A DNA stretch of 64,000 nt, taken from positions 1,472,269-1,536,268 of the forward strand of contig CAJINV010000017.1 in the NCBI GenBank assembly GCA_905178155.1. Direction: 5' to 3'. A program made the translations under genes and the position numbers. Below are positions 453 through 61,300 of this stretch, one piece after another. The DNA comes from Amoebophrya sp. A120. Lineage: Eukaryota > Protista > Dinoflagellata. The notes under the pieces are model-generated. The model searched no databases and was not told the DNA's origin. It saw only the letters and a program-made list of their open reading frames with translations. The number at the start of each line of letters is the position of its first letter. The stretch's first letter is position 1.

Positions 453-821
453 GTTTTGCTAACACCAAATACAAGCACCATACCAACAACTTACGCGCCC
501 AAGGAATTAACAGTTGCTCAAGCTGTAATACACATTCTTCATCACCTTCTCATTTTGGTGCAGCTCCTTAACCCATTGAGATCACCCCACCCATATGATT
601 TTCGAGCCCATTGAATTTGTACCCTTAGCCCATACATTGAGTCGTCGTAATGTATCTATTAATCGCTTCTTTCCGACGGAAACTCGGTGCCATCACGCCA
701 GCCCACAACATCTGTCGTGGGGTACCATCTTTGAAGATGCAAAGCTTGTTCAGTAATTCTAATTGAAACCTCAGAACATCAAGCGGATTATCTCAAATCC
801 CCTTCAACCCGGCCGTATATT

Positions 822-21139: not shown

Positions 21140-24100
21140 ATGGAAAAAGCCATAGTGAATCGGTGGAACGACTTCGACCCCCTCGAGGAGGTCATATTGG
21201 GAATCGCGGATGACGCCTGCTTCCCGCCGATGGAGCCCGCTTGCCAGTCCGAATTTAACGACCAATACACGAAATACGGTACAAGCACATGCTGCCTTTG
21301 TTTGTCATGTGGAAAGAACCCGATGAATTTGTATCCGGAAGAACTGGACCGCAATCGATTTTTTTTTCGAGTGCCTCTGCAAGCACAAAAAATGTGATAA
21401 ATTGCCTTGCAGCTCACCACGCAGGAGCAGTGACTAACATAGTGAAGATGAAAATCACAAAGAATGAAGGTTCTTTCATGAAATGTTACCAGGTGCCAAG
21501 ATGAGCCACCCCTTCTCGGAGTATTTGCCGTGGCCAACAGGACCCAAGCTCAAGCGCTTTATTGACGGCGCAAATAAGGAGCTTGAGGGTACAACTTCCG
21601 ATTCTGGTTTTTCGAAACAAGTGCGACAAGGGTATTCGCTACCGGTCAGAAATGCAACATCTTCTTTCATTTTCCGTATTCCATTTTGTCGCCTCACGCT
21701 TGCGAAGATGAAAAGTAAACTCGTGAGTTCGTTCATCTACCCAAAATAAAAGGCATGAAGGACGTCCTGGAAGGCGAGGGTGTGATTGTGAAGAGGCCAG
21801 ACCGCAAGTTGTGCAACTTCAATGTCCAGACAAAAACGCCAGACTTCGAGTCACCAAACCAGTACTGCGTCGTGTGCCCAAGAGACGTCGTGATGACCGT
21901 CGGTATAATTGTCGGCGTTGCAGGACAACTGTTGCTGTTCTTTCTGATGGGTTGTTCGTGCATGACACTGTACTGCTGAGGTTTGCATGATGGAAAGATA
22001 ATTTTTTATCTACACGTATATAGTAATTGCTGCTGGTGCAGCACTTCATCTTTCAAGCTCACTAAATACATTTTTTTCCACAGGTAACGAGATCGTGGAG
22101 GCCACGATGTGCAAGAGAAGTCGATTTTTTGAGTACCGACCCTTCCGAACGTTGATCCGGGAATATTTCGACGCCGACCCCCGGATGATCTGGACCGCGG
22201 CACCAAAACCCATGATGGGACCGGACTCCTACAACACAGACTTCTGGAACTGGACAGTCGAGGAAAGGATTGAGAGGATGCACAAATACGAATACTGCCT
22301 GTCGGAGAAGGAAGTATGAGAATGAGTTTTTTGTTTGCAGCTTGCCATGTAGTGCAAATCGCCGCACTACAAATCATCATATTGCGTCGCAGCTTTCGCA
22401 AAACAAAAGCAAAACCGCCTCATCTCACTTCTATCGTGTCAATGTCCCAACATCGAAACTTCTCAGATAATGTTCGACGCTGCGGACTGCCTCCTAATTG
22501 GAAACATGATGTTCGTGCAACAGTCTATGGTCACCAATCTCGCCGGAATCCGATGGTTGAAGAGGCATTTCGCGCCAAAGGGAATTCAGGTATAGAACTT
22601 TTACAGGGGTGGGCCCTCTGATGATTTTGTGCTTTTTTCGTCCTCTTGGAGTGCACAGAGCTCGTGTAAAAGCGCTCCTTACTGATGTTACTTGACATGA
22701 GCAAATTACGAGCAAGATTTGGAATACTCAATACTAAGGTCCACACCCTGCACTTTCCCTATGACCTCTACCCATCACACACCGACTGCACCTTCGTCGC
22801 CGTGAACGGGCACACTGTGTTGACAAATCCGGACAGGCTATCCAAGGAAAAACTGTGTTAGAGTAGGTGCTTGGAGTGACAGCATGACAACTTTGTTTTG
22901 CATGACAGAGAAAGCCTGTCGCGCACACCTGGAGGGCGCAAGCCTCGTACCATACCATACCATGCACAGCTGGCACCTGAAAACGCATATGAAAGACGAT
23001 TTCATGGCTGAATAGCATGACAAATGTAAGTGTATTGCATTATCTGCATCACGGACTTACAGTTGCGCACTTTTTTTCTCGCATACAAGCCGGTGGTGGA
23101 AGAGGAAGTGAAAATCTTCAAGCAGAATGACTGGAGGCTGGTACTAGACGAGATGGTTTGAAATTTCTAATGCGTCACACGAATGCAAAAGAAATTTGTA
23201 TTGCGTCACACGAAATGTACGATATTTATGTTTATCAGGTCGATGTGCCCTACTACACGACCGACAAGGAGCACCCGCCCATGTGCCAGTCTTCCAGGTG
23301 GCTCTCTATTTATCCTGCGTAAAAACGTCCCCAAGCCCAACCCAGAGTCAAAATGGGAATTTTGGTTGTCGCGCAGGATTTGCTTCTAGACAGAGCAACA
23401 GATTTTGGTCCTCGCGCATGACAGGTGTGGAATCGTCGTCTACTTAGTCGTATCTGACTAGTGCTGTAGCCTCACGAGAAATTGATGAAATGGGTCAGCT
23501 TATCCTGATGTATGAGATGGAGAGGATGACAAAGTCCCAGACAGCATTAGAAAATGCGTCTCATGGGGCTGCGGATGACACACATGCAAAGTATGCAGAT
23601 CTGCATGAGAGCTCTGCGGTAGGGACGTTTACGTTTTTCCACACGATACTGCGAACCTGTTCTCCATCACGCCAAACAAAATCGTCTGCGAGGAGGGTTT
23701 ATGGATTGCAAAACGATCGCGCTAGAAGTGGGAATCGCATCACAATATCTTTTGCCAGATTCAACAAGAGAACAAACGGCGTTTGTCATGCAGAATCAGG
23801 TACATACAAAATCAAAACAAATGTTATGCAGGGTTGCAATTAGTACGAGCGCGATGGTTTTGCACAGGATACGGCGAGAAGCCGCTGATCAACTATTTGG
23901 AGGGTGAGCTCGGTTTTGACGTCATTGGCGTGCCGTACAGACAGGTAGAAAAGTCATTTTTCATGCATCACAAAAATACGTATCGTACTTCACAAGTGGG
24001 ATGAAAGTTGGGTTTGTATTCATGCTGATTGAGGTGGAGGATGAAAAAATCTGTCGTTCTTGCAAGACAGCTGCGCATCAAAACTAGGTAATTATCCGCA

Positions 24101-24244
24101 AAAAAAAAAAAGGTCTTCGAGTTCGGTGGTTCCCTGCATTGCTCCACCTGGGATGTCCGCAGAACGGGCGGCTGTAAGGATTTTTTCCCGAACCGCGAGG
24201 ATATTGAGGACGTGGGCTTGCACAACCTCACGGACCTGCCGTAA
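21140..24244 (+). CDS. Amidinotransferase (glycine amidinotransferase-like), multi-exon
   Basis: VNRWNDFDPLEEVILG, CPRD, FDAAD, HTDCTF, NPDRP, WLSMN and GGSLHCSTWDVRR motifs. It contains seven GT-AG introns plus three introners. Confidence 0.92.
22839..23085. mobile_element. Degenerate introner (247 bp)
   Basis: TAT...ATA ends with weak TIRs; TSD CAGGC/CAAGC; several GCATGACA motifs. Removal restores the conserved NPDRP. Confidence 0.8.
23311..23648. mobile_element. Introner related to family A (338 bp)
   Basis: Left end TATCCTGCGTAAAAACGTCCCC; right end GGGACGTTTACGTTTTTCCACACGATA; decayed TSD CTATT/CTGCG. Removing 23310-23652 restores WLSMNL. Confidence 0.88.
23700..23871. mobile_element. 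Introner family E (172 bp)
   Basis: TIR TATGGATTGCAAAACGATCGCGCT / AGCGCGATGGTTTTGCACAGGATA; decayed TSD GGGTT/CGGCG. Confidence 0.85.
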
Positions 24245-26294: not shown

Positions 26295-27470
26295 ATGGCC
26301 GCCATCGAGTTTCGGCGCGCCAACTTCAATCTGGAAACTGCGGTAGATGCGGACGTTAGCGCCCCTCTAAAACTCGAGCTCACCTTTGAGGTTCTCGACA
26401 TTTTGCCAAACGCCGTGGAGATGAAGCTTTCCTTTCTGCCGCCGGTAGATTTGGGTAGTTCCGACGACGAGGAGGATGTTTCCGAGGATTGTGAGGGCGC
26501 TGGGAATAACGCTGACGAGGACGACGACGATGTTGAGAATAACAAGACCGAAAAATCTACTGCGAACAAAAGTTCCAAGAAGCAGAAAGCGATTGACAGT
26601 AAAACCCTTTCGATTTTCGTCACCAATCCGGACGAGCAGATCCTGGACGAGATCGAGTGCGGTCCGTTCCAACAGAAGGGCAAGAGGTACGGCGTTCTCA
26701 AACGTTACATTCTCAACTGTTTACATGAATTTGTAATGCAAAACTGCCATCAGGATCAAGGTACTCCGTATGACAAACTGTGCACAATCTTAACAGCATG
26801 ATCATCCGTTCCAAATTTGTAATGCAAAACGCGCAATCTTCTTCCCGCTCTCACTTTTACTGTTCTTGCGTCACAGATTCACTGTTCCGTCACAGATTCG
26901 CGCAACAGTTGAGACTGTAACGTTTGACACCCCCATAAGAGGAGGGTGATTCTGGAAGGCCAGGCCCCGGACTATGACAAAGTTCCGGAGGCGTCGAAGC
27001 TGGACAACGGCGGACTTTTGCTGACTGCGACCTATAAGGAGCAGGAATTCTACCGCTGCGGCTGGTTTCTCTCCCACAATTTCAAGGACCAGAAAGTACA
27101 GCAGGAGTGGCAAGAGACGGGGAAACGCCCACTGACGGTGGATTTCAGGAAGGATTTGCTGCGCCGGGTGGATTTCGAGCACCCAATAGAAAACAGAACG
27201 ATAATCGAGTGGGCGGAGGAACAACCGGAGAACGGGTTGAGAAAAAACGCCGGAAAAATAAATAACGCCAGCAGCGGGCATAATAGCTCCCGATCGAGCG
27301 AAGCGAGCGGCTCGTCTGGTGGTATTCACAGTGGGGAGCAAGAAGAAAGGCACGCGACAAAAAGGCGGAGAGTTCAGGAAGGCGGCGGAAGGGAAAAAGA
27401 CCGTCCGTCGAGCGGCAGGTCCAGAGAAGGTGGTGGAGGGAAGAGTAAGCCGAAGTTTATCATTGAGTAA
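26295..27470 (+). CDS. ASF1: Histone H3-H4 chaperone ASF1-like (intron 26687-26941)
   Basis: LKLELTFEVL, DEQILDEIECGP, APDYDKVP and LLLTATYKEQEFYRCGWF motifs; an acidic insertion and a disordered tail. Confidence 0.85.
26688..26937. mobile_element. Introner family D (250 bp); its boundaries are GT-AG
   Basis: TIR TACGGCGTTCTCAAACGTTACATTCTCAACTGT / ACAGTTGAGACTGTAACGTTTGACACCCCCATA; TSD AGAGG. Confidence 0.9.
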
Positions 27471-33542: not shown

Positions 33543-36500
33543 ATGGCTTTTTTCCAGGACGACCGCTCAGTGCGCTCAGGTGGAGGCGTGAACAGGCACG
33601 AAGCGACATTCTCCGTCTACGTCGATAACGTCGACCCGGCGAGCCTCGACTTACCCACAGTGACAGAGCTCGCAACTTACAGCTACCCTCCACAGGAGGA
33701 ACCGAGCTCGGGTTCTACTTATAGTTCTTCGTTATCTACTTCCTACCCGTCGCTGCACAAGGAGGACGTCTACACTCCTGCGCACCAGGAGCAGACCCTA
33801 TCCCTGATACCGCCGACGGCGGTCGGCAGGTTCGCGCTGCGGCACGAGGTCGACTTGAACCTGTACCGCAATTTAGTGCCGCTCTGGAATGGGGACCACT
33901 TCGACCTGTCAGACAAGTTCGATGCCGTGTGCGGGATCAAGGAACTAGACAAAGTGAAATGGGCAACGACCAAGACGACAACGTGTATTTCTAGTGGTAA
34001 GGAAATGGGTACCAATAACGACAGTGGTCTCCAGCCCGAAGAGCTGAAAGCCAGAGCGAGTTTTCTCGCGACCGCGATCGCCGCGAGGCTACTGTACGCG
34101 TACGAGAAAGCGGAGCAGGAGAGTGAAAAGAAAAAATCTGGAAAAAAAGGCAAAAAGAAGGGCGGCGGGAAGGGAAAAAAGGGCAATAACAAGGCCGGCT
34201 CAACTACATCTACCTTCGAGCCGGAGAGCAGACGAAAAAGCTCGTTTGAAGGAGAGCAGGACGCTACTAGCCCCTTGTTGAAAAAGCAACGGGCGAATAG
34301 CAGCGGTGGCGAAGATTATGATAGCCCTAATGCTAATATCAATGACAGGGAGCACGACTCCCCCTTCCCCGCGGCCGACACTCCAGAGGCGAGAAAACAG
34401 CTTTACCAAGCCTGTCTCAGCTACTGCTTCGGTGCGGTAAATTCCATCACTACCGCCTCTTCCCGAGCAGGCGCAACATTAGTGAATTCTGGGTCCTCGT
34501 CGCTCTTCGGAGAAGTGTTTGAGTTTGAGAAACTGCTCCACGCACACAAATTAACACGAATCTCCGATGACCTCGGCCCCGTTGACGCGTTCCTGGACCA
34601 GATTTCAATACTCCACGCTGAAGAAAAATTAGACCTCTCAGGAGATAGCAAAAAAACCAACGAGGATCACCTACAAAGCCAAAGCGCATTGGCCCCTCCG
34701 CGGAAGGAAACCCGGTGGTCCCAGTTCAAGATGTGGGCGACGTTGGCACCGAGTATCGAGGAGTGCACGTTTTTCGTGCCCCGGTTTTTCCTCGTGGATC
34801 TTGGGGCGGCGATGGAGAAAGCCCCGTACGACGTGGACAAGGAAGTCACGCTTTTGGTGGACGAAACAAAGTATCAAAGTGAAAAATCCCCCCACCCCAT
34901 ACTTAAACTAGAAATTTGTGATGCAGATTTGTGGTCACGAATCAGCTTTGATGCTAGAAGGGAAAAGATACGGACTGTAGTGCTGGCTGGCGTGGGAAAG
35001 CCTTGCATCCTCAGCATGACAGGGGGCAGCTGGAAGGGGGAAACAGTGTGACAAATTGCCTGCAAACGAGGCCAAAGCTGCGTCTCTTAGCCTTCTAGCA
35101 TTACAAGCCGATTTGTGTACTCAGATACAGCATCACAAATTTCGTTTTCGATATGGGGAGGGGGGATTTTTCCTTTTGATACAAAGAAGCACATCTTTGT
35201 GGGCCAGTCCGGCATGTTCAACGACAAGACGTACAACGACGGCCAACGGCAGGGGTACCACTTTGAGAGCAAACTGCTCGACGGGTTTTCCGACGGTGGC
35301 AGGACGCATTTGCTTACTGTGCTGGAGTTTTGTTCTAGTGGATCAAAGGACCACGCCGCTGGTGGTGGACGAAGCAGACGACCCAGCAACACGAGTACAG
35401 CCATGTCATCATTGAAATGCGTCTACTCCTGCGCCCCAGATTTTGCTTTTGGCGAGCAGAAGCCGCGACCGGAGAAGGAAGTCGATTTGTTCAAGTGGAA
35501 GACAATAACGAGGAAGAAGGAACAGAATCTGAATCCCGCGTCTCTAACGTCTTCTACAAGTAGCGCGGCAGGCGTTTCTGGCGGAGTAGATGGGAACAAG
35601 GTTTCAACCAAGGAACTCATCTCGGAGTGGCTCGCCACCGGCAAAAGCTGTCAGTACGGGTTACCGGGCGACGAAGAGAAAGTCGAAACTTTGCACATCT
35701 GGAAACAGACGACGAGTGATGAAGACCACAGCGCTAGTGCGCCCTCAACTGCGGTCAAAGATGAACCGGAGCCAAATCACGACAAAAGTAGAACCAGGTC
35801 AACTATTTACGGCGAACTGAAGCGCACCCGACATCTTTTCGGGAAAGGCGGCGAGTTGAAAAAGCTGAAATATTGGCTGCAGGCGTATTTCGGCAACATC
35901 AATCGCGTGATCGTGGGCTTGGATGGGGACCATGGACAGAACCGAAGTGATGATAAGAACATCATTAACGAAGTACTGTGTTTTATCCTGAGTAAAAACG
36001 TCCCGACACCAGAGTCAGGATGGGGATTTTGCAACACAAACCTAGGAGCTTTGGGAGTCACGCATGACAAGGTGCACTCCGCAGTGTAGTGCAGGTTAGC
36101 AAGTGCAGCCGCATCACAGATTCATCTGCTCATCCTGTTCACAGCATCACAAATTCCAATACACGATTGGAAATGGCTTTCATGGGGATGCGCATCACAA
36201 ATGTCTTTGTCATTGCAAATCTGCGTGACAGCTCTGGTGTGGGGACGTTTTTACTCAGGATATGTTTTGAAACGAACACCCTTGTGCCGGACTTGAACCA
36301 CCAGAAAAAGTTATCCGGGAGAAAACACCCATCCCCATCCATTTTTTGCATGAGAAATAGTGGACTTTATGCATGTTTTGCATGATGTCCGCCTGACCCA
36401 CCTTCCCTGCGTGACAGCCATCTGCGGCCGTTTGCACAGGGGGAGGCAAAGAGTGTCGCACTTCGGTTTAGCATGACAAATTGGATGGGGATGGGTATTT

Positions 36501-36719
36501 TTTCCTGGATGAAAGTGTATGCTGAAACTGCAAAATGCCCTGGAGTGGATACAGCACACCGTGACGGGCAAGTCACAGAGACCAGCGGGGCAGGCGTCTT
36601 TGTGGACCCTGAAAATCCGAAAGGAAGATAGCTTCGCTACCACCTGCAAATTGCAATTGGTGGAGCAAGCGGATGAGAAAGTGCCGAGTTTTGTCGGGGA
36701 AGTTTTCAGTACGACGTGA
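33543..36719 (+). CDS. Protein with a C-terminal DXO/Rai1-family decapping exoribonuclease domain (4 exons, 3 introners)
   Basis: GYHFE, YGELK and KLKYWLQAYFGNINRVIVG motifs. ORFs 33522, 35115, 36089 and 36519 join in frame once the three elements are removed. Confidence 0.78.
34872..35181. mobile_element. Introner (310 bp)
   Basis: TIR TATCAAAGTGAAAAATCCCCCCACCCCATA / TATGGGGAGGGGGGATTTTTCCTTTTGATA; TSD CAAAG. Removal gives DETK-KHIFVG. Confidence 0.92.
35984..36262. mobile_element. Introner family A (279 bp)
   Basis: TIR TATCCTGAGTAAAAACGTCCC; TSD TGTTT. Removal gives VLCF-ETNTL. Confidence 0.95.
36312..36511. mobile_element. Introner (200 bp)
   Basis: TIR TATCCGGGAGAAAACACCCATCCCCATCC / GGATGGGGATGGGTATTTTTTCCTGGATG; TSD AAAGT. 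Removal gives QKK-CMLKLQ. Confidence 0.9.
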
Positions 36720-39773: not shown

Positions 39774-42700
39774 ATGTTATTTGCCGGACCAGCGCGGTCC
39801 CTCTGGACGGGAACTTCGAGTTCCTCCACCTGCACCTCCTGGCGGACAAAATCGAGGCCGCGCACAGGCTCGGGAACGAGCTGCTCTCCAACATTTTCAT
39901 CTTTTTCCACCTCGACTAGAGGTGGTTCCACCGGCGGACCGAGGAAAACGACCTGGGCGGGTCAACAGGGCGGGAGTGGAGCCTCTAGCGAGCATCAGCA
40001 ACACTCAGCATCTTCATCCACTTCGCGGCCCTTTGGTGGAGCGGCTAATTATAGAGGGTGGAAGAGGATAAATCATACGATAAGAAACTTCTCATCTACA
40101 ACATCTGCTGTCGTCCATCCGTATTACTACGCTCGGGCGCTGACGTCACAAGACCTGAAGAAGTTCAAAAATGTAAATGACGACCGACATCCAGGAACAA
40201 TAAAACCACCTCCTCCGATAATCTTTTTGAAAAGAAGGGGCTTTTCCACCTCCGCAGCGACGACACCAGATGGCGGAACAACGGCCCCAGGAACAGCGAC
40301 GACGACCGCTACAACCTCTTCCACAGAGGGCGATACTATTTCTAATTCAGAACCATCAAAACCGAAAGCCCTCAGTTCTGACCCCGGGTTTTTCGTAAAA
40401 CCCCCGACTCGGAACCAACTCCGGCGCGTCTTCATTGCATCCGCGATCCCCTTCATCGGTTTTGGTTTCCTGGACAACTTTCTGATGATCCTGATGGGCG
40501 ACGCGATCGACGCGAGCCTGTGCGTCAAATTCGGCTTTTCCACCATGGCGGCAGCGGCCCTCGGGAACACGTTTTCGGACGTTTGTGGCGTCTTTTCCGG
40601 GGGCGTGATTGAGGATTACGCGCAAAAGCGGGGGATCGAGATGCCGGCGTTGGACAGTGAGCAACTGAAACTAACGTCCGTGAAAACGTACCAGTACGGC
40701 GGTTTTCCCCAAAGACAATTTTTTTTTTTCGATCCAATTGTAAGCAGGGCGGGCCCTTCGCAACCGACTTGCGCCGCGAATGGCCAGACCGAGGCGGAGG
40801 CGCGCGCCCCCCCGGGTGTGTTGCTTTATGGAATCCAAGAGATTGCGTAGCTAGTGGCGCCAACGAACTGCTTTGGTAGCTCCTCGAGAAGTATGCGCGC
40901 AATTTAAGAAAGGCCTCTGCGGCTCGGAGTCCAGACGCAGCCGGCCGCCCCTCCTTCAGGGCAGAGCAGCTTGCTGATGTTCTCCATGACCGACCCCAGT
41001 GTGCCTCTCTTTCTATCCTACAGGCTGAAAAGCGCAACGCCCCGCCCGGCTTTTTGGGGCGCAAGCAGCTCGAGCCCCGCGGGGCAGCGCCCGGGGCAAG
41101 GCGCCCGTGCCAGACCCGCCCCCCGGCCACCTAAGGCTCCCACGCGATGCCCCTTGCCGTGGACCTGTGTTCTCCACTTGAGGCTGGCCGGCACCGTTTC
41201 CCTGAGTGCATGCTCGGACACGTTGGCGAGAAAAAAAACGTATGCTGGGGATTTCGGCCCTAAGCGGCTATCTACGCACTTGCGGCCACCAAAACGGGCA
41301 CCAGAAACGTCCCGAAAGTGGACGCATGCACGACCTCCAGGGAAGCGGCGAGGCCGGGGCCTCAAAAGTTGGGCGCGGCCTTCAAAGTCCGGCGGCCATG
41401 TGGGCCCGGGCAAGGGGCCAGCGCCGACGCCCACAAATCAACACTCGGCACGGCAGGCGGGGCGTTGGATCGCTAACAGAATAACAGCGCCCCGTCCGAG
41501 GTAGCAACGCAGAGCACGCTTTTCCAGCAAAATGCCCGCAGCCAAGCAAGCGCGAGCAGTGCGGCGGGGCCGCGTTGCAGTAGTCTACACGCGGATCGGG
41601 CCGAAATAGATACACACATCCACAAAGCCTGCTGCCCCATCAGCTCAAGCGCTGACTTTTGAGCGCCGCCATCTCGCTTGCTCCTTTGCATATGTAACAG
41701 CATCAGAGATTATCCTTGAAGAAGATCCACTAGCGGACACTATCCGGTCGGGCTGCGCAGGCGCAGCCGGCGGCCGTGTTGTTGCATCAGTTCAAAAAAA
41801 TTTTTTTGATTTGGGGAAAACCGGGGTAGTGGGGACAGTTTTTCCTAACGTAGAAACTAACGTCCGTGAAAACGTACCAGTACGGCGGCCAGGCCTGGTA
41901 TGGAAGCGTCAGGTTTGAAATCGTCAAAGTTGAAATAATTTGTAATGCATAAAATGCATGACCCGAGGCACGTATGTTGCAGAGCAGGGAAGTGAGGCCG
42001 ATTCTAAGCCTGTTTGGGGTTACAGCTCGAGCTGCTAAAGTAGCATGAGAAAATCGCTCTTCTTTGCCTAAAAAGCATGACAAACTGGATTTTGGGACCA
42101 ACGAAATTTGTCTTGCGCCACTTGGAAACTGGGTTGTCTAACTGGTGTCCGTTTTATGCATGACAAATTATTTCAACTTTGTCGATTTCAACTCTGACAC
42201 ATCCATACCTGTGGGATCGTTGTCGGTTGCATCCTCGGGATGTGCCCCCTGCTCTGGATGGACCCGGACGCGACGGAGAAGTTGAAAAAGGAGAAAACCA
42301 AAATCGACGTGTTGAACCGGGTTGTCACGGACGTGAACGATTTACTGAACGCAGAATATCATATGTAAAAGCGTCCCCACGACCCCAGAGGCAAATTGGG
42401 AGCTTAGCAACAGAAATTCAGAAGTTTTGGGAGCCACGCATGACAAGTTGCAGCCCGTAGTGCAGTGCATGTTAGCAAGTGCAACCGAATCACAAACCCA
42501 TCGATCTTCTTATCCTGTTTACCGCATTACAAATTCCAAACCACGGCGACTGGAAATAATGCCTCTCATGGAGATGCGCATTACATATCTTCGTGTAATC
42601 GCAAATCTGCATGACAGCTATGTTGGGGTCGTGGGGATGTTTTTACATAGGATACAGAAGCGACGTTCATCATGATGATCGACCGCGAGCGCGAGGAGCT

Positions 42701-45700
42701 GTACACCGTCGCGACGGAGAACATCCCGGAATTCATATCCTGACTAAAAACGTCCCCACCCCAGAGTCAAGATGGCGATTTTGCAACACAAACCTAGGAG
42801 TTATGGGAGTCACGCATGACAAGTTACAGTCCGTAAGGTAGTGCAAGTTAGCAAGGAGAGCCGCGTCACAAGTCGATCTGCTGATCCTCTTTACAGCATT
42901 ACAAGTTCCCAAACACGAGTGACAATGCCTGTCATGGGGTTGTGCGTCACAAATGCTGCTGTCATGGCAAATCTGCATTACAACTCTGGGGTGGGGATGT
43001 TTTTACTCAGGACAAATCCGCGCGAAACTGAACGAGGGCGTGATGGGCCACTGTGCGACGACGAAGAAGTTCATCAACATTCCGGACCTGAAGCAGTCCG
43101 AGTTCTTCGACCCGAAAAGGCACACGAACTACCGGAATACGGGGAGAGATATCAAATCCGTGTTGTGCATGCCGGTGCTGAATCTAGCCGAAGTGGAGGG
43201 CGTCGACGGGGAGCAGTCCTCGGTCATCGCAGTGGTCGAAGCCGTGAACAAGAAAGCAGACACGGGGTTCACGCACAAAGACGAGGAAGTGATTGCCGCG
43301 ATCTGCTCCCATATAGCGACCGCGCTCGCGGACGACGAACATCGAAAGTTCAAAAACGTCATCGACATGTGTCGGGCACAGATTGTGCTACGGGAGCAAT
43401 ACACGACGATGAACCCGTACTGTTTTTTTTTTTTATTTGCTTTATCGGTTTTGTTTGTGGTGTAAAGAAACTCAAACTACGAATAACAAGAAGTGATGCA
43501 GCTGCGATGGTTTGCATTTATTTCAGATGCAAAAATAAAACCTGAGATAAAAAAAAAACAGCATTGCATGTCGTAACTGCCACTTGCTCGTCCTGCAAGA
43601 ACCTGCAATACGTAGCAGTATTAGCAGTAAAGCAACTCTGTTCATCTAAGATATCATTTTAACACAGTGTCATCGAGCAGAGGCAGATGAAGCTGTTCGA
43701 AACGCTCATGGAAGAAACCAGCGCGATTTTAAAGGCCGAGGCGTCCCATTTGCTCCTGATCGACCCTGTGAGACAGAAACTGCGAACGAAGGTCGGACAC
43801 GTCTTGCCGCTCAGGGAGTTCGCGCTTGATGAGGACATCATGGGAAAAGTGTGCCGGAGAGGTAAAGAAGTATGTTGACACAAGCTGCGCAGTGGTTTCA
43901 AGATTGTTGCATTTGCAGCTACTTCTTTATGGCGCCGTATACTATCTCAACGTCGAACTATCTCAAATTTTTTTACCTCAACTCTATATAGCTACCTAAA
44001 GTAGGTAGTTTATGTAGATAGTGAATTATATGCAAGTAGATAACTGTTTTGCATGACAAATGAGCTATATTAGAAGAAATCGTCTGGTCCCGCTCCGCCG
44101 CCCTGTCAATTTCCGGAACCCCTTTCGACCCCGTCTGTGAGGGGCCCCCCCGGAAGGGGGGTCGGCGAGGGGGGTAGCTGAGGGGGGCAATAATAAGCTT
44201 CCGCCGATGCTAGGGCGCACTGAAAAAATGCAGCTTTTTGAGCACCTTTCAGGGGTTCGCGGAGGGGGTGTCCGGAAGGGGTCATGAGGGAAGCAACAGG
44301 ACTAGAAAAAATCGGCGGAGCAGGACCGGACGATTTTCATTGATCTAACTTAATCTGTCACGCCAAAAATCTAGCTACATAAGCATCATGTGTTAGCTGA
44401 ATAAACTAGCTACTTGAACTACCTATTTAATATTGGGTTGAAAAATTTTGAGATAGTTGAGCGTTGAGATAGTATACGGCGCCATATTCTTGGTATCGAC
44501 GACGATCATAAGTCGCAGACTGCTCCGCTGGAACCATCGCTCATTTTTTTATGAAGATATCACTTGCACTTCTGAAATTGCTATAGAATAGAATTTTCTT
44601 TCCGCAAATGGAATACATTTACACATCCTCAGGTCAACTGGTGAACTCGACGGATTTCCAGCGTTCCAAGTACTACAAGCCCGAGAAGCACGACAACTAC
44701 CTGGGCACGGGGCTGGAAGTGCGGACAAGATTGTGCGTCCCGGTTATCTATGCACTGCAAAAGTATCGTATTAGTATTAATTGCAATACAAATTCGCTCA
44801 GCATGACAAATTCTGACTAATGGAACTTGTCATGCTGATTTGCTTTGGCAACGAGATTTGTAATGCATAAATGCAATTACTACGAGTACGATACTTTTGC
44901 CGAGGATGTTATCAACACGGAAAGGCACGTGATCGGGTGTTTGGAAGTGATCTATCGCAAGAAAAAAATGTTTCAATGTGAACTTGTGATGCAGAAAATG
45001 AAGCACCAGAGTTGTTCTCTTGCTACACCTGCAAGACATTGGATTTCTAAGCGTGTTGTCTGTTGGGAAACGCGCATGGCAAATAATTCTGAAACTTGTG
45101 ATGCAGATCTTGCAAAATCATCACAGGGAAACAGTTTTTTCGTGGGATATGATCAACAAAAAGTCCAATGAGGTTTTCAACATGCACGACATCGAGCATT
45201 TGTTGAACATCGCCGGCCACGTCGCGCTCACACTGGAGGGTCACGGGTCTTCCATCAAGAAGGTTTTGGCGTTGGCGCAGGACCAACGGCAGTTGATGCA
45301 GGACAGCAAGGACTTCAAGCGCACCGCGACCAGGCAGCTGTCCGGGCCGTTGATGTTACAGGTGGAGCCGAGTGAGGAAGACGCGAATCTGGACCACGAT
45401 GATTCTTGGGACGATGAGATGGTCGCGGCGAGCGAGCACGTGGTGGACTTGATGGCCGGGCAAGATTTGATCAACAAGGGGGACGCGACCGCGCACAAAA
45501 TGTCTTTAGGCGGTCACGCGAAGAACGAGGCGCACCTGAAGCAGAAACTGCGGAAACTGCAGAAAGAGTCGGACCTCGTGGTGCACTTGGACCGGGCCGC
45601 GGACCTGCCCAATATGGCGTTCTCAACTGTTACACTCTCAACTGTTACATGAAATTTGTCATGCAAGAACAGCAGCAACCGAAGAGGCAAGATTGCTGCT

Positions 45701-47010
45701 TTCGCATCACAGATTTGGCAGAGATGTGCGTCCTGTTTAGCCCTTCGGAGATTTGTCATGCGTGGCCGCTTGATCATCTGGAGGCTTAAGGTAGTTTTGC
45801 ATGGCAAATCCGTGTAACAGTTGATAATGTAACAGTTGAGAACGCCATACCAAAAGCGGATCTGTTCGGTACCATCGATCCCTACATCACTGTATCACAA
45901 GAAGAAGTGTTAACGTTAACGGTTTTCACAGATTGCAGTCATGCATCACAAATGTAGTTAAATATGCATCACAAATGTAGTTAAATATGCATGCTATGCA
46001 TGACAAATTTAGGCACGTTTTGCTTTTGTGATGCATTTCTGCATTACAAATTCCGTTAACGTTAACACTTTTTCCTGTGATACACTGTCAGCATCGTGGA
46101 GGGAGATCCGAAAGCACCAAATTACGACGGGCCAACGAAGGGGCGAGGTAAAATTTTTGATAGCCTTTATGTTTGTTTCGTAAAATCGAGCGCAGCAGTG
46201 AGAGTCGTTACAACAGTGTGCTTCGAAGTATTTATGGTTTTAACCATTTTTTGAGTTGTTTCTCCTCGCAACACAGCAGGTGAGATGAATTATCTGAATC
46301 AGTAATCTGCAAAACTGCTTGATAAAAAGATACATACATGAAACGTCGAACTGCAGGTCACGCGTCGCCGCTCGGGCACGGAAAGTCGGTTCCGATTAGG
46401 CAGAACCAGAACCCGGTGTGGAACGAGAAAATCAACATCGCTTTACCGGAGGAGCTCGTGAACGATTACGAAAACCTCTACCTGCACATCAAATATCCAC
46501 TGCAAAAGTATCGCACTCGTATGAATTGCAGATATGCATAGCAAATCTGGTTTCCTACCCAAATCTGCATTACAAATTCCAAGTTTCTTCCTGATAAAAT
46601 TTGTCATGCGATTTATACTAGTACGATACTTTTGCAATGCATATCAAGCTGTGGGACTGGGACTTCATGAAATCAGACGACATGATATCACAAGAAAAAG
46701 TGTTATACGTTAACGGTTTTCACAGATCGCAGTCATGCATCACAAACGTAGCCCAATATGCATGCTACGCATGACAAATTTTTACACGTTTTGTGATTCA
46801 TTTTTGCATCACAAATTCCATTAACGTTAACACTCTTTCCTGTGATACATGATCGGGGAGGTGGTTTATCCGTTAAAACGCGTTCTGCAGGAGGACACGA
46901 TGCAGATGACGTCGTTTCCCTTGACCGAGATAAAAAACAACCCGGACGAGTATGACTTGAAAAAATCCCGCATCTGGCTGAAGTTCTCAATCGCGAAGAA
47001 AAAGCAGTGA
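39774..47010 (+). CDS. TMEM65-domain + GAF + GAF + C2 fusion protein (~14 exons)
   Basis: TMEM65 motifs IPFIGFGFLDN, STMAAAALGNTFSD and GIVVGCILGMCPL; two GAF domains (SVLCMPV..AVNKK..FTHKDE; LCVPVI..EVINKK..F..HDIE); C2 (DLPKADLFGTIDPY, NPVWNE, LWDWDFMKSDDMIGE). Inferred exons: 39774-~40700, ~41854-41897, 42212-42355, 42659-42734, 43019-43416, 43668-43861, 44633-44747, 44913-44951, 45154-45611, 45854-45891, 46087-46147, 46357-46492, 46648-46684, 46852-47010. The start is uncertain. Confidence 0.8.
40701..41822. mobile_element. GC-rich 1.1-kb non-autonomous TIR element inside the TMEM65 domain
   Basis: 13-bp TIR GGTTTTCCCCAAA / TTTGGGGAAAACC; no credible ORF; bracketed by a 36-bp exon duplication (40667-40702 = 41853-41888). 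Confidence 0.7.
41899..42207. mobile_element. Introner family C (309 bp)
   Basis: TIR TATGGAAGCGTCAGGTTTGAAATCG...; TSD CCTGG/CCTGT; homologous to 59028-59334. Confidence 0.93.
42357..42654. mobile_element. Introner related to family A (298 bp)
   Basis: TIR TATCATATGTAAAAGCGTCCCCACGACCCCA / TGGGGTCGTGGGGATGTTTTTACATAGGATA; TSD CAGAA. Confidence 0.93.
42736..43014. mobile_element. Introner family A (279 bp)
   Basis: Family A TIRs and length; decayed TSD ATTCA/AATCC; interrupts the first GAF domain. Confidence 0.92.
43928..44486. mobile_element. 559-bp MITE of the introner class nested in the canonical intron 43862-44632
   Basis: Long TIR TATGGCGCCGTATACTATCTCAACG...; TSD TTCTT; additional internal inverted repeats around a GC-rich core. 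Confidence 0.92.
44749..44908. mobile_element. Introner family E (160 bp)
   Basis: TIR core GCAAAAGTATCGTA; TSD TTATC. Removal gives CVPVI-NTERH. Confidence 0.9.
44953..45149. mobile_element. Introner (197 bp)
   Basis: Ends TATCGCAAGAAAAAAATGTTTC / GAAACAGTTTTTTCGTGGGATA; TSD TGATC. Removal gives LEVI-NKK. Confidence 0.9.
45613..45849. mobile_element. Introner family D (237 bp)
   Basis: TIR TATGGCGTTCTCAACTGTTACA; TSD CCCAA/CCAAA. Removal gives DLPK-ADLFG. Confidence 0.92.
45893..46082. mobile_element. Introner family F (190 bp, with an internal tandem duplication)
   Basis: TIR TATCACAAGAAGAAGTGTTAACGTTAACGG; TSD CACTG. Confidence 0.93.
46494..46643. mobile_element. Introner family E (150 bp), opposite orientation to 44749-44908
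   Basis: TIR TATCCACTGCAAAAGTATCG / CGATACTTTTGCAATGCATA; TSD TCAAA/TCAAG. Removal gives LHIK-LWDWD. Confidence 0.9.
46686..46847. mobile_element. Introner family F (162 bp)
   Basis: TIR TATCACAAGAAAAAGTGTTA; TSD CATGA. Removal gives DDM-IGE. Confidence 0.93.
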
Positions 47011-55439: not shown

Positions 55440-58318
55440 GCGATTGTGATTGATGATGAAAAATCCACCTCTGCGGGGAAGGAACGACAACGAGAAATAT
55501 TAAACATTGCAGAGCTTCTTGTCGCGTGCCGCGATGAACATACAAAATGAACCACATTTCTCACCACTGGAGGGACGTCAACCGCGCATCAGCAAATCTT
55601 CGAGCAGTAAGATGACAAGATAAAAACTACGACTCCTCGCTGAACAATACGAACAACAGCGGGCGGTTGTAACAGGAACAGGGCGCTGCACGAGTAACGC
55701 ACTACACGCCTCGATCTCTGATATGTGGAATTCCCTCTGGGGTGTGAATGTTAAAGTTGAAACGAATATGAAACAAAGACAAGAATGTAACAGCAGCAAA
55801 TCCATTTTGTACACCCGTTCTTAAAGACAAATGACATTATTTTCAACGAAACTTTTCAACCGTTTGGTATTTTGATTCTCAGAAGACAATGACAAAGAAA
55901 TATAGCAAGAGCCGCTGTGCATGACGACGGCTTTTTATCGAAGATATATAGCAGCACATAGATGGCTACAGGAGAATGACATAGCAGCCATTCCAAGATA
56001 GCACAGATGCTGTCTATATGATAGTACTACAAGAACGAACAAGACTTCATTAGCTTTTTTTTTTTAGAGCGACAGCCCCCTACACTTGGAAAGTTTCCTT
56101 TTTGGTAGCACCTTCTAGCGACCCCACCCTTTCCCGTGGCATGTCTCCCCATGATTTTCCGCTCTGTTGCTCAGAAACCTTTGAGAATGAACCGGGTCGC
56201 ACGAGAAGAAGCCTAGAGTAGCAGCAAAAAAAAGGATGGATCATGATGAGCGAATGCGTTTGGCAAAAAGAAACGCCTGCACAGCTTGCACTTTTCGAAG
56301 TTTTGTGTTCCGCTACTTCCCCTTGCAGCTGATCCGAGATGTAGAGAGTGTGGAAATACCAGCCACCTGGCTGGCCCCTCCATGTTTTTGTTTTTTGAGC
56401 CATTGTTAATCCTGTCGGGTGCATATCAGTGAGCAGCGCCCTGCCCTCGCTTATGGTGGGGCATGGCGGCCGCCCGTTCCCGCTGTCAGGGGGGGCGGCA
56501 GGGCGCAGCATCCGGCGGGGGCGCAAATTGGCCGGCCCGCGATTTGGCTCGCTGGCTGCCTCCCAATCTCCCGAAGAAGGACCCCGCAACGCCTGTGCGC
56601 GCGTAGATCGATCGCGGCCGCCAAGGAAGACGCCAACCCGGGCGCGGGCTCCCTGAGTCTTCGCTCGCCCTTGGCCGACTTCCAGATCCAGGCCGGGGCT
56701 ACCGGACTAGGCGGCCGGCTTTGCCGCCTTTCGGGGGGCGGTCGGAGGGTCCGCGTGCCCATTGGGCAGGGGCGCGCCCGGCGATTGGCGGCACCGGGCC
56801 CGCCCCTGTTGATTCAGCAGCGAGGGCGCAGCGCCCGGCTTTGGCGGAAATTAAACGGCCGGCCCGCCCCCAGATGCAAGCACGTCTGCCCCCCTCCTGA
56901 AGGGGGGCCCCGCTGTGATTGCCAGGGCCGGCGTTGTGGTCGGTGCCGGCCGGGCGGTGCGGGGCGGCGCCCGCCAATTAAGGCGATCACCTGACTCCGC
57001 AGGCTTGCAGTGATGCGCATGGATGGCGTCGCGATAGCAGTACTAAACTCCGACAGCGTAACCACGCAAAGCGTGTGGCTCCGCGCGAATGCCATGCGAT
57101 TTGTTTCCATCGTTGCGGCTATCTCAAGCACCCCACGAACCTGCCGAAGTTGTCGCGGAGCGCCTTTCTTCAATGTTCGCTCGCAAAGTTGCCACGCGCG
57201 CGAATTTGCCGAGCCGCCCACGAGGCGCTGACTGTGTGGGCGGGTGTGCCCGGATGGTCGCGGTAGCAGTCTGCGAGTGGAGTGTCTCGAGTCAGTGGCG
57301 GCAGCCGAGCGCAGAAAGAACTCCGCCGACTGCCTGCGGCCCACCCGCGCCACCCCTAAAAGCAACGTAGTTCGGCCCTCTTCATTTGGCCGCAGATTTG
57401 CAGTCATATACCAAGCAGGAGGGGGCAAAGAATTACGCGGGCGATCTCGGGGGGGGGGGGGGGCGCCGCAGGCAGCCAGCCAAGCTAGCCGCCCCAATCA
57501 CGGCCGCGGGGCGGCGCGCTCCATCCTTCCGCCCCGGCCGTCGTGCGTGCGCCCGAACGACCTCGCGCCCGGCGGGCGCAGACGCTCGGCCCGCCGGGGC
57601 CTTCCGGGATGCAGGGCGGGGGGGGGGGCGGGTGAGGAGGGCGCCGCCCCTACCCCCGGCCCGCCGGCCGCCCCTCGGCGTTTTATTTTATATCCAGCAC
57701 GCAGCACCGCAGGCCCCAAAGTGCGTGCTTGGGGGTCCCGTGACCCACCTGCCTAGTGGGCGCGGGTTGTTTGTCTAATACATGGCCAGGCGGTGCTGGC
57801 GCGGCGCAAGGAAGTGGGGGGGGGGGGCGTCGCCGCCTTTCTTTGCCGGGCTGGCAGGCAGCGCCAGACCCGCCCTGGCGCAAGCATTCGACCTAGGGGC
57901 GATTCTTGTGTCACTTCTTGAAGCCGGCCCGCCCATCAAGCGGTTGCGGCCGGCCGGGGCGTTGTGTGTGTGTCGAGCAAATGGGCCCGTGCCGCCCGCT
58001 CGAGTAAATCAATTAGTCAGCAGATAGCCCGGCTTTGAAGGCGTGACCCAGCGGGGCCCCTCCCTCGTCTGTTCCTTTGCATTAATTCTTGTGAGCAGAA
58101 GTACTTCAGTTTAGTCTGGCAATAGATGACTGTCGTGTATCGATCTGCTTCTTTTGGTTTGCGCACAGGCGACGAAGTTCTGTTGCCAGTAAGTATCATG
58201 CTGTCGCTCAAGAACGACATGAAAAGCATCTTCTTCACAAACTTGCAGTGGACACAACCATCGATAAAAAGGCTAGGTAAGAAGACCCGCCCTTCTAAGA
58301 TCAAATGTGGTGAACAAA

Positions 58319-61300
58319 ATGCCAACTACATCTTTCACATGTAGTGAACAAAATGCCCCGACATCACTTTCCCGGCAATGTGAAGCTCGCGGCGGTCTTA
58401 GAGGTGCAGACTCTGCGCCCGCTATCAATCACCGGCAGCACGGCCGGACTGTGCTTCGAATCCGCGCGCGCGCATTTCTTGCGTTGCAGATTTTCCAACT
58501 TCAATTGCACGACCGCGTTGCGTCATCATCGGCCTTTCCTGTTTCTTCAACTACGTCTTCTGCTACATCAACAGAAGAAAGGAGTGGAGGGCTAGGCCTT
58601 CGCGCTTCTAGACGACCAGCAGGAAGAACAGCAAGCGCCAACGTTTTACCGCACCTGGAGTTCACGCTCGACCTTTCAAAATCGCTAGGCGAGTCGACCT
58701 CAAATTTTGTCTGCGCGACCCTCGATTGGTGGCCGAGAGAGCAGAATGACGACGGCCGCTTTCCTTGGCAGTTTAACACAACGATTCCCTGGCTGGACGC
58801 GAAAAAACTTGTTCCCTTTGTGCGGGGAATGCAGCACGAGCGTCCTGCCCCTGCAGGTGGACAAGCGCCTCGCCCTCGCGAGCCAAGGGCACCAGATGGG
58901 AGAGACGCCCGTGCGGAGAACGGAAGTCGTGGGGCATCAAATGCAGGAAGCTACGTTCCTAGTACTACAGTTGAGCCCCCCAGTCGCGAGCGAGAGCTTT
59001 CTTCAACAATAAATCACCCTCCTGTCATATGGAAGCGTCAGGTTTGAAATCGCCAAAGTTGAAATAATTTGTGATGCATAAACTGCATAGCGCGAAATAC
59101 GTGTGTTGCAGAGCAGGCAAGGGAGGCCGATTGTAAGCCTGTTCGGGGTTAGAGCTCGAGCTGCTAAAGTAGCATGAGAAAATCAGTCCTCTTTGCCTAA
59201 ACAGCATCACAAACTGGATTTAAGCATCGCCAAAATTTGTCATGCGCTACTTGGAAACTGGGTTCCAACTGGCATCCATTTCATGCATCACAAACTATTT
59301 CAACTTTCACGATTTCAATCCTGACACTTCCATATGTCATCCTTCGTGTTGGCGGTTCCTGCGGCGATTTGATCATCTACGAGGAGCGGCTGGACGAGGA
59401 TGAAAAAGCGGTGCAGAGCTGGAACCATTTTCGGGAGACACACGGTACCTACCTCCCGAAATCTTCCTTCGAGCCCCACCCGAAACCGGAGCCCTGCCCC
59501 GACTTCGAGCCCAACCCAGACAACCCGCCTCTGTATTACACGAACGGCTGTTTGAAACGGGAGAAATTGAAGAATTTGCTGGAATTCTGCGAACAGGCGA
59601 ACTGCAAGATCATCTTCGGTTTGAACGGGTTGTTCGGGGAAAAACTGGTCCCTCTTCCGAACAAAAATCCGAAAATCCCCGACTACAAGTATTTCGGCCG
59701 GTGGAACCCGCGCAACGCGTTTTATCTGCTGTGGTTCGTGAAGTTTGTGCTGCGGAAATCGCACGTGATCCTCGGATTTGAGTTGGGGAATGAGCTAGGC
59801 GGGATTCCGGGCGTGCCGGTGAAATTCTCGGTGGAGCATTACGCAGCGGCGTATAGGATTTTGGAGAAGCTGGTGAGCTGGTTTAATGATAACGACGAAA
59901 CGGCTTTGGACTGGTCGGGCTCCTCCTCGTCGAAAGCGGCGAGTAAACTCCTGGACGGCCGCGGTGACAGAGCACTCTCCAGCACTTCGTGGAAGGTCAG
60001 TGACGAACAGCCACCGAGGCAGGAGGATTATGATGTCGCAGAAAATATTAAACCTCGACCCCACGACGGTGCTTCTTCTTCAACAGCGAAGAACACGTCG
60101 TCGAAGAACACGCCAGCAGTAAAAACAACAAAGACAGCCTGGCAGCTCTTCGGCGTCGCGAGTTGGTTCGACTACGAGTGGCTTCGGCGGTTCCAGGAAT
60201 TGCTGAAATTTCCACACTTCACCTTCACCACCCACCTCTACAGCCTCGGGTCTGGGCCGGGGCAAACGAGGAAGGCGTTGATCGAGGGAAAAATCCTGAA
60301 CGCGACCTACCTGGACGAAATGCACACTGTCGCGAGAAGCAACAAACAACTTCTCCACCACTTCCGAGAAGACTACGGGCCGACGAAGGACAAAAATTTG
60401 AAGATCATGCTGGGCGAGTCCGGGGGCGCGTTTGGGTCCGGGGCAACAAACATCACCGACGGTTTCTACTCGGGGTTCTGGTTCCTGGACCAACTCGCGA
60501 TCTTCGCCATCCACGGGGAAAACGTGCATTACTGCCGGCAGACGCTGGTCGGCGCCTTTTACGAATTGGTGAGCGGGGAGTTCTATCAAATGTAAAAGTG
60601 TCTGGGTCTGGAGAAAAGCAGCGCTTGTCATGAATATTTAGCATGACCCCTGATGTCTCTGATGCATGCCCTAGCATCACAGATTTGTTGAGGGCTTTGC
60701 GATGCCTGTACTGCATGAGAAATGCCCTCTCCGCGTAACAGAGAATGGACCTCTTTTGCTGGTCACGCTATACAGATTCTGTGTAGAATCCAAAGGCAGC
60801 ATCACAAGTTGCAACCTTCCAGACCCAGACATTTTTACAGGTGATAAGTTCCTGGTCCCAAATCCGGACTGGTACGTCAGTTCGCTGTGGAACTTATCAA
60901 ATGTAAGAATGTCTGGGTCTGGAAGATTCTGAGACTTGCCATGCATGTTTTGCATTGGCCATGATGTCTGTGATGCATGCCCTAGCATCACAGATTTTCT
61001 GAGGGCTTCGCGATACCCATTCCGCATGACAAATGCCCTCTCCGCGTAGCAAAAATTGCACTCCCTTTGCTGCTCATCCAATACAGATTTTTTTGGAATC
61101 CAGATTCAGCATCACAAGTTGGTTCTTCCAGACCCAGACACTTTTACATTTGATAGAACTACTTCATTCGGGAAGGTGGGGAGTTTCTGGAGATTAAGGA
61201 AAGCGCTGGGGTTTACTTGCCGCAAGTTCTTGCAAATGGAGAAAAATACGATCCTCTTCGTTTTGCAGATGGTGAAATAAATGGGTGGAGTTATAGTGTA

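What the first reader, a model, noticed from the sequence alone, without database searches (positions are those of the whole stretch)
23653..60893. Introners come in pairs separated by 37-46-nt micro-exons
Seen: the exons between adjacent elements are 46 nt (23653-23698), 44 (36267-36310), 39 (44913-44951), 38 (45854-45891), 37 (46648-46684) and 43 (60851-60893). That covers 12 of the 23 exonic copies, and five of the six pairs are from different families, while kilobases of other CDS are empty. Inference: an existing element directs a new insertion about 40 bp away (a bound-protein footprint or a chromatin linker effect), possibly with a minimum exon size as the lower limit.
Basis: partly seen in the sequence, partly recalled or inferred. 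Interest (0 to 1): 0.8.

Follow-up and report, generated by a model that had tools for sequence, protein, structure and literature searches.

The report
Jumping introns land beside earlier ones
In the algal parasite Amoebophrya and a sister species, transposon-made introns sit 30-120 bases from one another far more often than chance and rarely closer, likely because a resident intron makes the nearby exon DNA a preferred landing zone, which would chop genes into roughly 60-base exons.

Summary
Six exons of 46, 44, 39, 38, 37 and 43 nt separate adjacent introners (5-bp repeat, TAT...ATA ends) in Amoebophrya A120 and involve 12 of 23 exonic copies. Spliced contigs keep three of them (one by direct joints, two by length arithmetic). 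No A120 genome was held, so I tested about 750 kb of a sister species carrying the same element families. Of 357 introner-introner exons, 11 are under 30 nt (52 expected) and 142 are 40-79 nt (52 expected; 76 with a 30-nt exclusion plus target-sequence bias). Canonical-canonical exons show no such peak (2 of 44 at 30-79 nt). Neighbour-biased placement is therefore real, but it is a broad 30-120-nt zone (median 61), not a 40-bp ruler. It forms chains of up to 12, has no helical phase or direction, already shows in the youngest copies, and same-family neighbours are halved. The narrow 37-46 band is likely a tail of this zone. Insertion bias is favoured over later selection, but neither is proven. 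The elements are published; I did not find the spacing rule in print. Earlier scan notes cover these elements, not this rule.

The parts
23311..23648 (.). Pair 1 upstream introner (degenerate repeat copies CTATT/CTGCG); removed 23310-23652
   Evidence: joint 23309>23653
23653..23698 (+). 46-nt exon of a glycine amidinotransferase-like gene; codes for part of the conserved WLSMN...PNKIVCEE stretch
   Evidence: spliced protein identical to public A120 protein P0001; aligned without gaps to 12 homologues across the exon
23700..23871 (.). Pair 1 downstream introner; removed 23699-23875
   Evidence: joint 23698>23876
35984..36262 (.). Pair 2 upstream introner (279-nt family, repeat TGTTT)
36267..36310 (+). 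44-nt exon
   Evidence: ORF open; no RNA joint displayed
36312..36511 (.). Pair 2 downstream introner (repeat AAAGT)
44749..44908 (.). Pair 3 upstream introner (about 153-nt family)
44913..44951 (+). 39-nt exon of the GAF-domain gene
   Evidence: ORF open; GAF hit in an upstream exon
44953..45149 (.). Pair 3 downstream introner (about 212-nt family)
45613..45849 (.). Pair 4 upstream introner (TATGGCGT family)
45854..45891 (+). 38-nt exon
   Evidence: contig length arithmetic 269 = 269
45893..46082 (.). Pair 4 downstream introner (TATCACAA family)
46494..46643 (.). Pair 5 upstream introner (about 153-nt family)
46648..46684 (+). 37-nt exon
   Evidence: contig length arithmetic
46686..46847 (.). 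Pair 5 downstream introner (TATCACAA family)
60584..60846 (.). Pair 6 upstream introner (TATCAAAT family)
60851..60893 (+). 43-nt exon of a glycoside hydrolase 79-like gene; the only same-family pair
   Evidence: ORF open; Pfam PF03662 in the preceding exon
60895..61155 (.). Pair 6 downstream introner (same family, 81% over 155 nt)
42659..42734 (+).
   Evidence: (joints 42351>42655, 42732>43017)
22839..23085 (.). Degenerate 23rd exonic introner, 51 nt upstream of a canonical intron
   Evidence: joint 22836>23089

Best explanation
Amoebophrya's transposon-derived introns sit 30-120 nt from another one about two to three times more often than random placement gives and are scarce within 30 nt, likely because a resident intron turns the flanking exon DNA into a preferred landing zone for a shared transposase at the time of insertion. 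Shown: the six exons and their splicing where RNA reaches; the zone in a sister genome; its absence between canonical introns; its presence in the youngest age class; its symmetry; the halving of same-family neighbours; a one-sided target motif 13-17 bp from the centre of the 5-bp repeat; the near-confinement of elements to coding-like DNA. Inferred: one trans-acting transposase serves all families (shared TAT...ATA ends, 5-bp repeat); the resident raises local accessibility or local enzyme concentration (chromatin or splicing-coupled recruitment) without acting as a rigid ruler; the lower limit comes from steric exclusion or a minimum spliceable exon; same-family neighbours are lost through cross-pairing, recombination or target immunity. 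Each new element becomes a new resident, so clusters would grow into chains of about 60-nt exons.
For: Gene-model-free scan of 88 sister-species sequences: of 518 neighbour gaps, 13 are under 30 nt, 182 are 30-79 nt and 7 are 120-149 nt. In 156 modelled genes, 142 of 357 introner-introner exons are 40-79 nt against 51.8 (uniform), 75.7 +/- 7.6 (30-nt exclusion, max 96 of 300 runs) and 76.5 +/- 6.8 (exclusion plus fitted GC3 and target-sequence preference, max 95 of 200 runs). Pair correlation is 2.0 at 40-79 nt and near 1 beyond 120, so broad hot regions do not explain it. Odds ratio for a neighbour at 30-99 nt is 2.8-3.9 in all five age classes, 3.9 in the 47 youngest. Elements with and without a near neighbour do not differ in end pairing, repeat integrity or target score (359 vs 140, all p>0.3), so weak elements are not the ones rescued by neighbours. 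Same-family neighbours: 17 of 236 vs 35.0 +/- 5.1; 16 vs 28.7 without the bait family, p=0.003. 623 of 642 scorable elements have coding-like joined flanks although about 297 kb lies outside modelled CDS and elements. The one-sided target motif points to DNA-level target capture (both sides 21, one side 326, neither 190 of 537).
Against: No transposase, chromatin map or fresh-insertion data were seen. The age proxy (identity to the nearest sibling in 750 kb) is crude, and strong selection soon after insertion would look the same. The large sample is a sister species (one protein compared, 75% identical to A120), not A120. In the window 6 of 7 short exons fall in 37-46 nt, against 16% in the sister (p about 0.002 after allowing any 10-nt band), so A120 may have a tighter, shorter zone. 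Target scores are not weaker near neighbours, as tethering might predict (young near -2.91 vs isolated -2.62, p=0.10). Attraction by canonical introns is one-sided and rests on small, post hoc counts (downstream 60-100 nt 18 vs 7.8; upstream 40-100 nt 17 vs 13.9). Same-family depletion also trends at longer gaps (23 vs 30.3, p=0.08) and could be partly an assembly effect. The coding-like test is loose (20% of intron and 45% of intergenic controls pass).
Confidence: 0.55

Rival explanations
1. Insertion ignores neighbours; selection on splicing shapes the pattern. Exons under 30 nt are purged, and an introner 30-120 nt from another intron is spliced better (cross-exon cooperation) and survives more often.
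For: The lower limit and the same-family deficit are both natural splicing effects. In pair 6 the outer arms pair as well as the proper ones (-50.3 vs -44 kcal/mol). U1 snRNA was not found in A120 (PMC7789003, passages), so splice-site definition is unusual. Start and stop codons show no clear attraction (stop, 60-100 nt: 10 vs 7.7), while splice junctions do.
Against: The effect does not grow with age. Paired elements do not have weaker ends. 176 of 298 clusters are single elements, and isolated ones are spliced (for example 54072>54339). Selection alone would leave neutral copies in introns and intergenic DNA, but 19 of 642 lack coding-like flanks and 0 of 13 long elements held a nested copy. 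In pair 1 the outer duplex (-20.3) matches the upstream element's own (-18.2), yet the exon is kept.
Confidence: 0.25
2. Nucleosome geometry sets the zone: either insertion into the linker beside an element-bound nucleosome, as reported for algal introners, or into the first nucleosome that abuts the resident.
For: The per-base rate is centred near 70 nt and falls to 0.45 at 120-150 nt (7 vs 15.7, p=0.012), where canonical-canonical exons peak (12 vs 3.7). There is a weak bump at 250-279 nt (16 vs 12.2 +/- 3.5). Linker insertion is reported for Micromonas and Aureococcus (PMC9860276, PMC10228655, passages).
Against: No clear second peak in pair correlation. The A/T signal around sites is a local spike near +/-15 with power at all periods, not a specific 10-bp repeat. 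The 120-150 dip is not much below the 200-249 level. A 90-nt-wide zone is long for a linker (my judgement). Amoebophrya histones are very divergent (PMC4751559, passages), and no nucleosome map was found.
Confidence: 0.12
3. One reading: a protein bound to the resident directs a new insertion about 40 bp away, giving pairs.
For: 6 of 7 short exons in the window are 37-46 nt. In the sparsest sister genes 3 of 8 short exons are 37-46 nt, median 47.5.
Against: Sister-species short exons span 31-107 nt (5th-95th percentile). Isolated pairs have median 60.5 nt (n=54). No 9.5-11-bp phase (p>0.3). No correlation with the internal motif offset (n=252). The target motif faces the neighbour 70 times and away 64 times. 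With 229 windows of this genome scanned, one p=0.002 window is unsurprising.
Confidence: 0.05
4. Chance, gene-level hot spots, local hopping, or short exons made by long target duplications.
For: The finding was picked post hoc. Insertion rate varies about threefold with local GC3. A 36-nt duplication does flank a 1.1-kb insert in the window.
Against: Per-gene, exclusion and sequence-weighted nulls all fail by many standard deviations. Same-family neighbours are depleted, not enriched. 0 of 238 short exons is 70% or more identical to neighbouring coding sequence.
Confidence: 0.03

Closest known systems
Amoebophrya A120/A25 introner elements (Farhat et al. 2021, PMC7789003; Gozashti et al. 2025, PMC12130899)
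   Same: Same organism. Inverted-repeat ends, 5-nt direct repeats, non-GT-AG removal, many families, tens of introns in some genes.
   Different: The passages, sections 5 and 12 and supplement hits I saw report no spacing rule between elements, no 30-nt exclusion, no same-family deficit. Supplementary figures could not be seen.
Linker-targeted introners of Micromonas pusilla and Aureococcus anophagefferens (Huff et al. 2016, not held; seen only as summarised in PMC9860276 and PMC10228655)
   Same: MITE-like DNA transposons that create introns, with position bias tied to local DNA context.
   Different: Those use canonical splice sites and linkers. Here the bias is relative to other elements, spans about 90 nt and shows no clear nucleosome-period repeat; linker position is untested.
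LEDGF/p75-guided lentiviral integration (PMC4647561, search listing only; PMC13582839, abstract)
   Same: Works like it as an analogy: a host factor tied to splicing and gene-body chromatin steers an integrase to spliced genes. Some A120 introners resemble LTR-element sequences (PMC12130899, passage).
   Different: Acts at gene scale, not in a 30-120-nt zone beside a prior insertion. No such factor is known in Amoebophrya, and none was sought here.
Fixed-distance tethered insertion (Tn7/CAST, Ty1, Tf1-Sap1) and local hopping; recalled, from no call
   Same: Insertion at a preferred distance from a bound site or from a donor copy.
   Different: Here the distance is broad, unphased and unoriented, and neighbours are less often of the same family.
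Very short exons of core dinoflagellates (median 53 and 51 nt in B. minutum and S. microadriaticum, PMC7789003 Table 1; 74 nt in Amphidinium carterae, PMC12584245 passage)
   Same: Similar size to the introner-introner exons here (median 61 nt among those under 120).
   Different: Those introns have GT/GC/GA-AG ends; no causal link was tested.

Membership tests
Amoebophrya introner elements | Terminal inverted repeats of 8-20 nt or more | tested here: met
   15-20 of 20 terminal bases pair in all 12 paired elements
Amoebophrya introner elements | 3-5-nt direct repeat at the borders | tested here: met
   4-5 of 5 matches in 10 of 12; 2 of 5 in both pair-1 elements
Amoebophrya introner elements | Removed from RNA without GT-AG ends, present in DNA | tested here: met
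   Joints TT..GC in X4 and X1, unspliced in X6; further joints. X1 and X4 are RNA by the tool's guess; they also lack the GT-AG introns
Amoebophrya introner elements | Repeated families; host is Amoebophrya | tested here: met
   18 families of 3 or more among 552 elements; window protein 100% identical to an A120 protein
Linker-targeted algal introners | Insertion in nucleosome linkers | not testable with these tools
   No chromatin data; no map found
Linker-targeted algal introners | Nucleosome-period phasing of positions (feature recalled) | tested here: inconclusive
   Pair correlation near 1 beyond 120 nt; weak bump at 250-279 nt; dip at 120-150 nt p=0.012
Linker-targeted algal introners | Canonical splice sites | tested here: not met
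   TT..GC, GC..AA, CA..TA and other ends; one window copy reads GT..AG through its repeat (49614>49899)
Fixed-distance tethered insertion (recalled) | Narrow distance, helical phase, fixed orientation | tested here: not met
   31-107 nt range, no phase, no side bias
Local hopping (recalled) | Excess of same-family neighbours | tested here: not met
   17 of 236 vs 35.0 +/- 5.1
Micro-exons made by long target duplication | Exon is a copy of adjacent coding sequence | tested here: not met
   0 of 238 at 70% identity or more; window exons 37-43%

The most novel reading that the evidence does not exclude
Intron gain here is self-reinforcing with a built-in length scale: each new intron draws the next to about 60 nt away, so genes are shredded into chains of 40-80-nt exons. 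Amoebophrya shows this in progress, and the same process run to saturation made the roughly 50-nt median exons of core dinoflagellates.
Probability: 0.2. Interest if true: 0.85.

Novelty: new variant of a known kind. Interest (0 to 1): 0.62.

Why it matters
Models of exon-size evolution usually treat intron gains as independent and favour long exons and exon centres (PMC3732091, abstract). Here new introns crowd next to existing ones at a set scale, which offers a testable route to the tiny exons of dinoflagellates. The spacing, the 30-nt exclusion, the same-family deficit and the one-sided target motif also constrain the still unknown transposase and non-canonical splicing machinery of Amoebophrya. 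All can be checked on the public A120 and A25 genomes with RNA-seq.

Tried and rejected
No whole genome was held, and the loci's records are not held as genomes, so no A120-wide test and no longer contigs. Two element-end patterns found 0 matches in viral contigs. Raw-read runs X9-X11 gave almost no coverage of the coding junctions, so exon skipping could not be measured. Huff et al. 2016 is not held. A candidate element near 36905-37090 was rejected (10 of 20 end matches). The shared internal motif as a branch point was rejected: in 181 canonical introns it occurs on both strands (29 plus, 45 minus; about 7 and 9 expected) at no fixed distance. The motif as a tether was not supported: no offset correlation, no excess in exon flanks of isolated sites, no clear gain for motif-bearing canonical introns (21 of 107 vs 27 of 198 sides). 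My first reading of the target motif as palindromic was wrong; one search shows it is one-sided. One search had the target centre off by one and was redone. The apparent exclusion upstream of canonical donors (0 vs 11.3 under 40 nt) is not trusted, because the gene model can absorb such exons. Exon length mod 3 shows no bias (66/78/83). Direction of transcription does not matter (younger upstream 54, downstream 44, p=0.36). Rows dropped: of 95 loci listed, 5 duplicates were removed and 2 overlapping pairs merged (88 left); 17 loci under 1 kb were not gene-modelled; genes scoring under 30 were left out, which drops many dense clusters (96 element calls); 76 uncertain predicted introns were kept out of the canonical class. 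Not in print as far as searched: plus term searches inside the papers; subscription papers and supplementary figures were not visible.
Full report
Organism and elements. No genome was held for the window. An exon of the gene at 21140-24244 matches a protein named Amoebophrya sp. A120 at 100%, and my spliced model of that gene is identical to it. The window holds 23 exonic elements of 150-340 nt built as 5-bp repeat, TAT...ATA inverted ends, 5-bp repeat, plus one in a canonical intron (43928-44486). These fit the published introner elements of A120 (PMC7789003: abstract, passages, sections 5 and 12, supplement term hits).

The observation. Removing each element plus five bases (one before, four after) leaves exons of 46, 44, 39, 38, 37 and 43 nt at exactly the stated coordinates. 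The one-before, four-after register was suggested by earlier scan notes and is borne out by unambiguous joints. For pair 1, contigs of two likely-RNA runs join 23309>23653 and 23698>23876, and run X6 is unspliced over 22600-26716. The exon codes for a conserved stretch that aligns without gaps to 12 homologues. For pairs 4 and 5 one contig has exactly the predicted length, 269 steps. Pairs 2, 3 and 6 rest on open frames only. Under per-gene random placement, six exons of 37-46 nt never arose in 20,000 runs, and six of 46 nt or less arose in 0.15% (two 5' CDS lengths estimated). RNA-supported canonical exons of the Hsp70-like gene are 185-439 nt.

Independent test. One element-end pattern retrieved 95 loci of a single metagenome assembly. 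They share families with the window (up to 98% identical) and have no long match to it. Five locus proteins found in the collection sit in single-member clusters without the A120 records, and the one I searched is 75% identical to its A120 counterpart, so this is a sister species. After removing 5 duplicates and merging 2 overlaps, about 750 kb remained. A scan using no gene model gave 518 neighbour gaps: 13 under 30 nt, 182 at 30-79 nt, 7 at 120-149 nt. I then trained a small gene finder with no spacing prior; it recovered most RNA-shown junctions of the window, though it was partly trained on them and missed some. In 156 genes (310 kb CDS, 531 introners, 156 confident canonical introns, 76 uncertain ones set aside) there are 357 introner-introner exons. 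Of these, 11 are under 30 nt against 51.9 expected and 142 are 40-79 nt against 51.8. A 30-nt exclusion raises the expectation only to 75.7 +/- 7.6, and adding a fitted GC3 and target-sequence preference gives 76.5 +/- 6.8, at most 95 in 200 runs. Pair correlation returns to about 1 beyond 120 nt. Canonical-canonical exons differ: 2 of 44 are 30-79 nt, and with introners removed they peak at 120-149 nt (12 vs 3.7).

What the zone looks like. Relative to each gene's mean, the rate of a next introner is 0.08 at 0-20 nt, 0.42 at 20-30, 1.35 at 30-40, 2.5 at 40-60, 3.2 at 60-80, 2.15 at 80-100, 1.8 at 100-120, 0.45 at 120-150 and about 1 beyond. The median short exon is 61 nt and only 38 of 233 are 37-46 nt, so the window's 6 of 7 is unusual (p about 0.002). 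It may be a selected tail among 229 scanned windows or a real species difference; I cannot tell which. Clusters are not just pairs: 176 singles, 77 pairs, 23 triples and 22 chains of 4-12. There is no helical phase or frame bias, no link to element length or internal motif offset, no direction and no duplication of neighbouring sequence. Same-family neighbours are about halved (17 of 236 vs 35.0; 16 vs 28.7 without the bait family), with a weaker trend at longer gaps. Canonical introns attract introners downstream (18 vs 7.8 at 60-100 nt) but not clearly upstream (17 vs 13.9 at 40-100 nt); stop and start codons do not.

Mechanism. Insertion sites carry a one-sided motif, Y at +13 and A at +15 from the repeat centre: one side in 326 of 537 sites, both in 21, neither in 190. 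Its side is unrelated to the neighbour (70 facing, 64 away). Elements are almost confined to coding-like DNA (623 of 642, by a loose test), and no nested copy was seen in 13 long elements. The neighbour excess is as strong in the youngest class as in older ones (odds ratio 3.9 vs 2.8-3.6), and neighboured elements are not weaker than isolated ones. I therefore favour a bias at insertion: a resident intron makes the next 30-120 bp of exon more receptive to a shared transposase, through chromatin or splicing-coupled recruitment (0.55, inferred). Selection for cooperative splicing (0.25) and nucleosome geometry (0.12) remain open; a rigid 40-bp ruler (0.05) and chance or hopping (0.03) are unlikely. 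No transposase, chromatin map or fresh insertion was examined.

Comparison and novelty. The elements are members of a published class. Linker insertion is reported for algal introners (PMC9860276 and PMC10228655, passages; Huff et al. 2016 not held). Splicing-linked targeting is known for lentiviral integrase (PMC4647561, listing; PMC13582839, abstract). I found no statement of inter-introner spacing in searches or in term searches of PMC7789003, PMC9860276, PMC12130899, PMC11282704, bioRxiv 2020.10.14.339549 (zero hits for six terms) and PMC12005148; supplementary figures and subscription papers were not visible. Two word searches of earlier scan findings for this rule returned nothing. Median exon lengths of 53 and 51 nt in two Symbiodiniaceae (PMC7789003, Table 1) are close to the scale found here, which gives the bolder, untested reading.

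Verdict. Observation confirmed; interpretation partly supported. The rule is real and replicated in a second genome, but broader than proposed, and its cause is unproven. New variant of a known kind; interest 0.62.

Noticed in passing
insertion sites in window and loci L002-L078: One-sided target motif (C/T at +13, A at +15, T-rich at +16/17 from the centre of the 5-bp repeat); the two sides are nearly exclusive (p=6e-17) and show no consistent link to element orientation.
   Followed up: partly
window 40667-41888: A 1.1-kb GC-rich insert with GGTTTTCCCCAAA-type inverted ends (about 40701-41822) and a 30-nt tail lies between two copies of a 36-nt coding stretch (40667-40702, 41853-41888), 10 nt upstream of the introner at 41899.
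   Followed up: partly
canonical introns of window and loci: The elements' internal motif (CAT[G/C/T]ACA) is 4-5 times enriched on both strands in 181 canonical introns and rare in exons; it may be a general non-coding DNA-binding site or a relic of old elements.
   Followed up: partly
loci, canonical-canonical exons: Exons between canonical introns avoid lengths under 120 nt and peak at 120-149 and 200-299 nt, a nucleosome-like size in a lineage with very divergent histones.
   Followed up: partly
window 60584-61155: In the same-family pair the outer arms pair as strongly as the proper ones (-50.3 vs -44 kcal/mol), so skipping of the 43-nt exon with a frameshift is predicted; no read data reached it.
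   Followed up: partly
L001-L095: A sister species with 75% identity in the one protein compared carries element copies up to 98% identical to those of A120, hinting at recent exchange or slow change of the elements.
   Followed up: no
window 43928-44486: A 559-nt element with long inverted arms sits inside a canonical intron, about 52 nt after the donor; the only non-exonic copy in the window.
   Followed up: no
window 49620-49898: A family copy whose repeat lets it read as a GT-AG intron (joint 49614>49899), a possible step from introner to canonical intron.
   Followed up: no
exon DNA within 50 nt of introners: Third-position GC is raised (0.69 vs 0.62) next to introners only over about 50 nt.
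   Followed up: partly
window 1-460, 7100-8400, 40800-41700, 56350-58050: Very GC-rich stretches with G/C runs and no convincing coding model; 63-279 is a long hairpin and 348-458 holds three 35-nt tandem repeats.
   Followed up: no
element lengths, window and loci: Lengths cluster near 155, 215, 265-285 and 320 nt.
   Followed up: no
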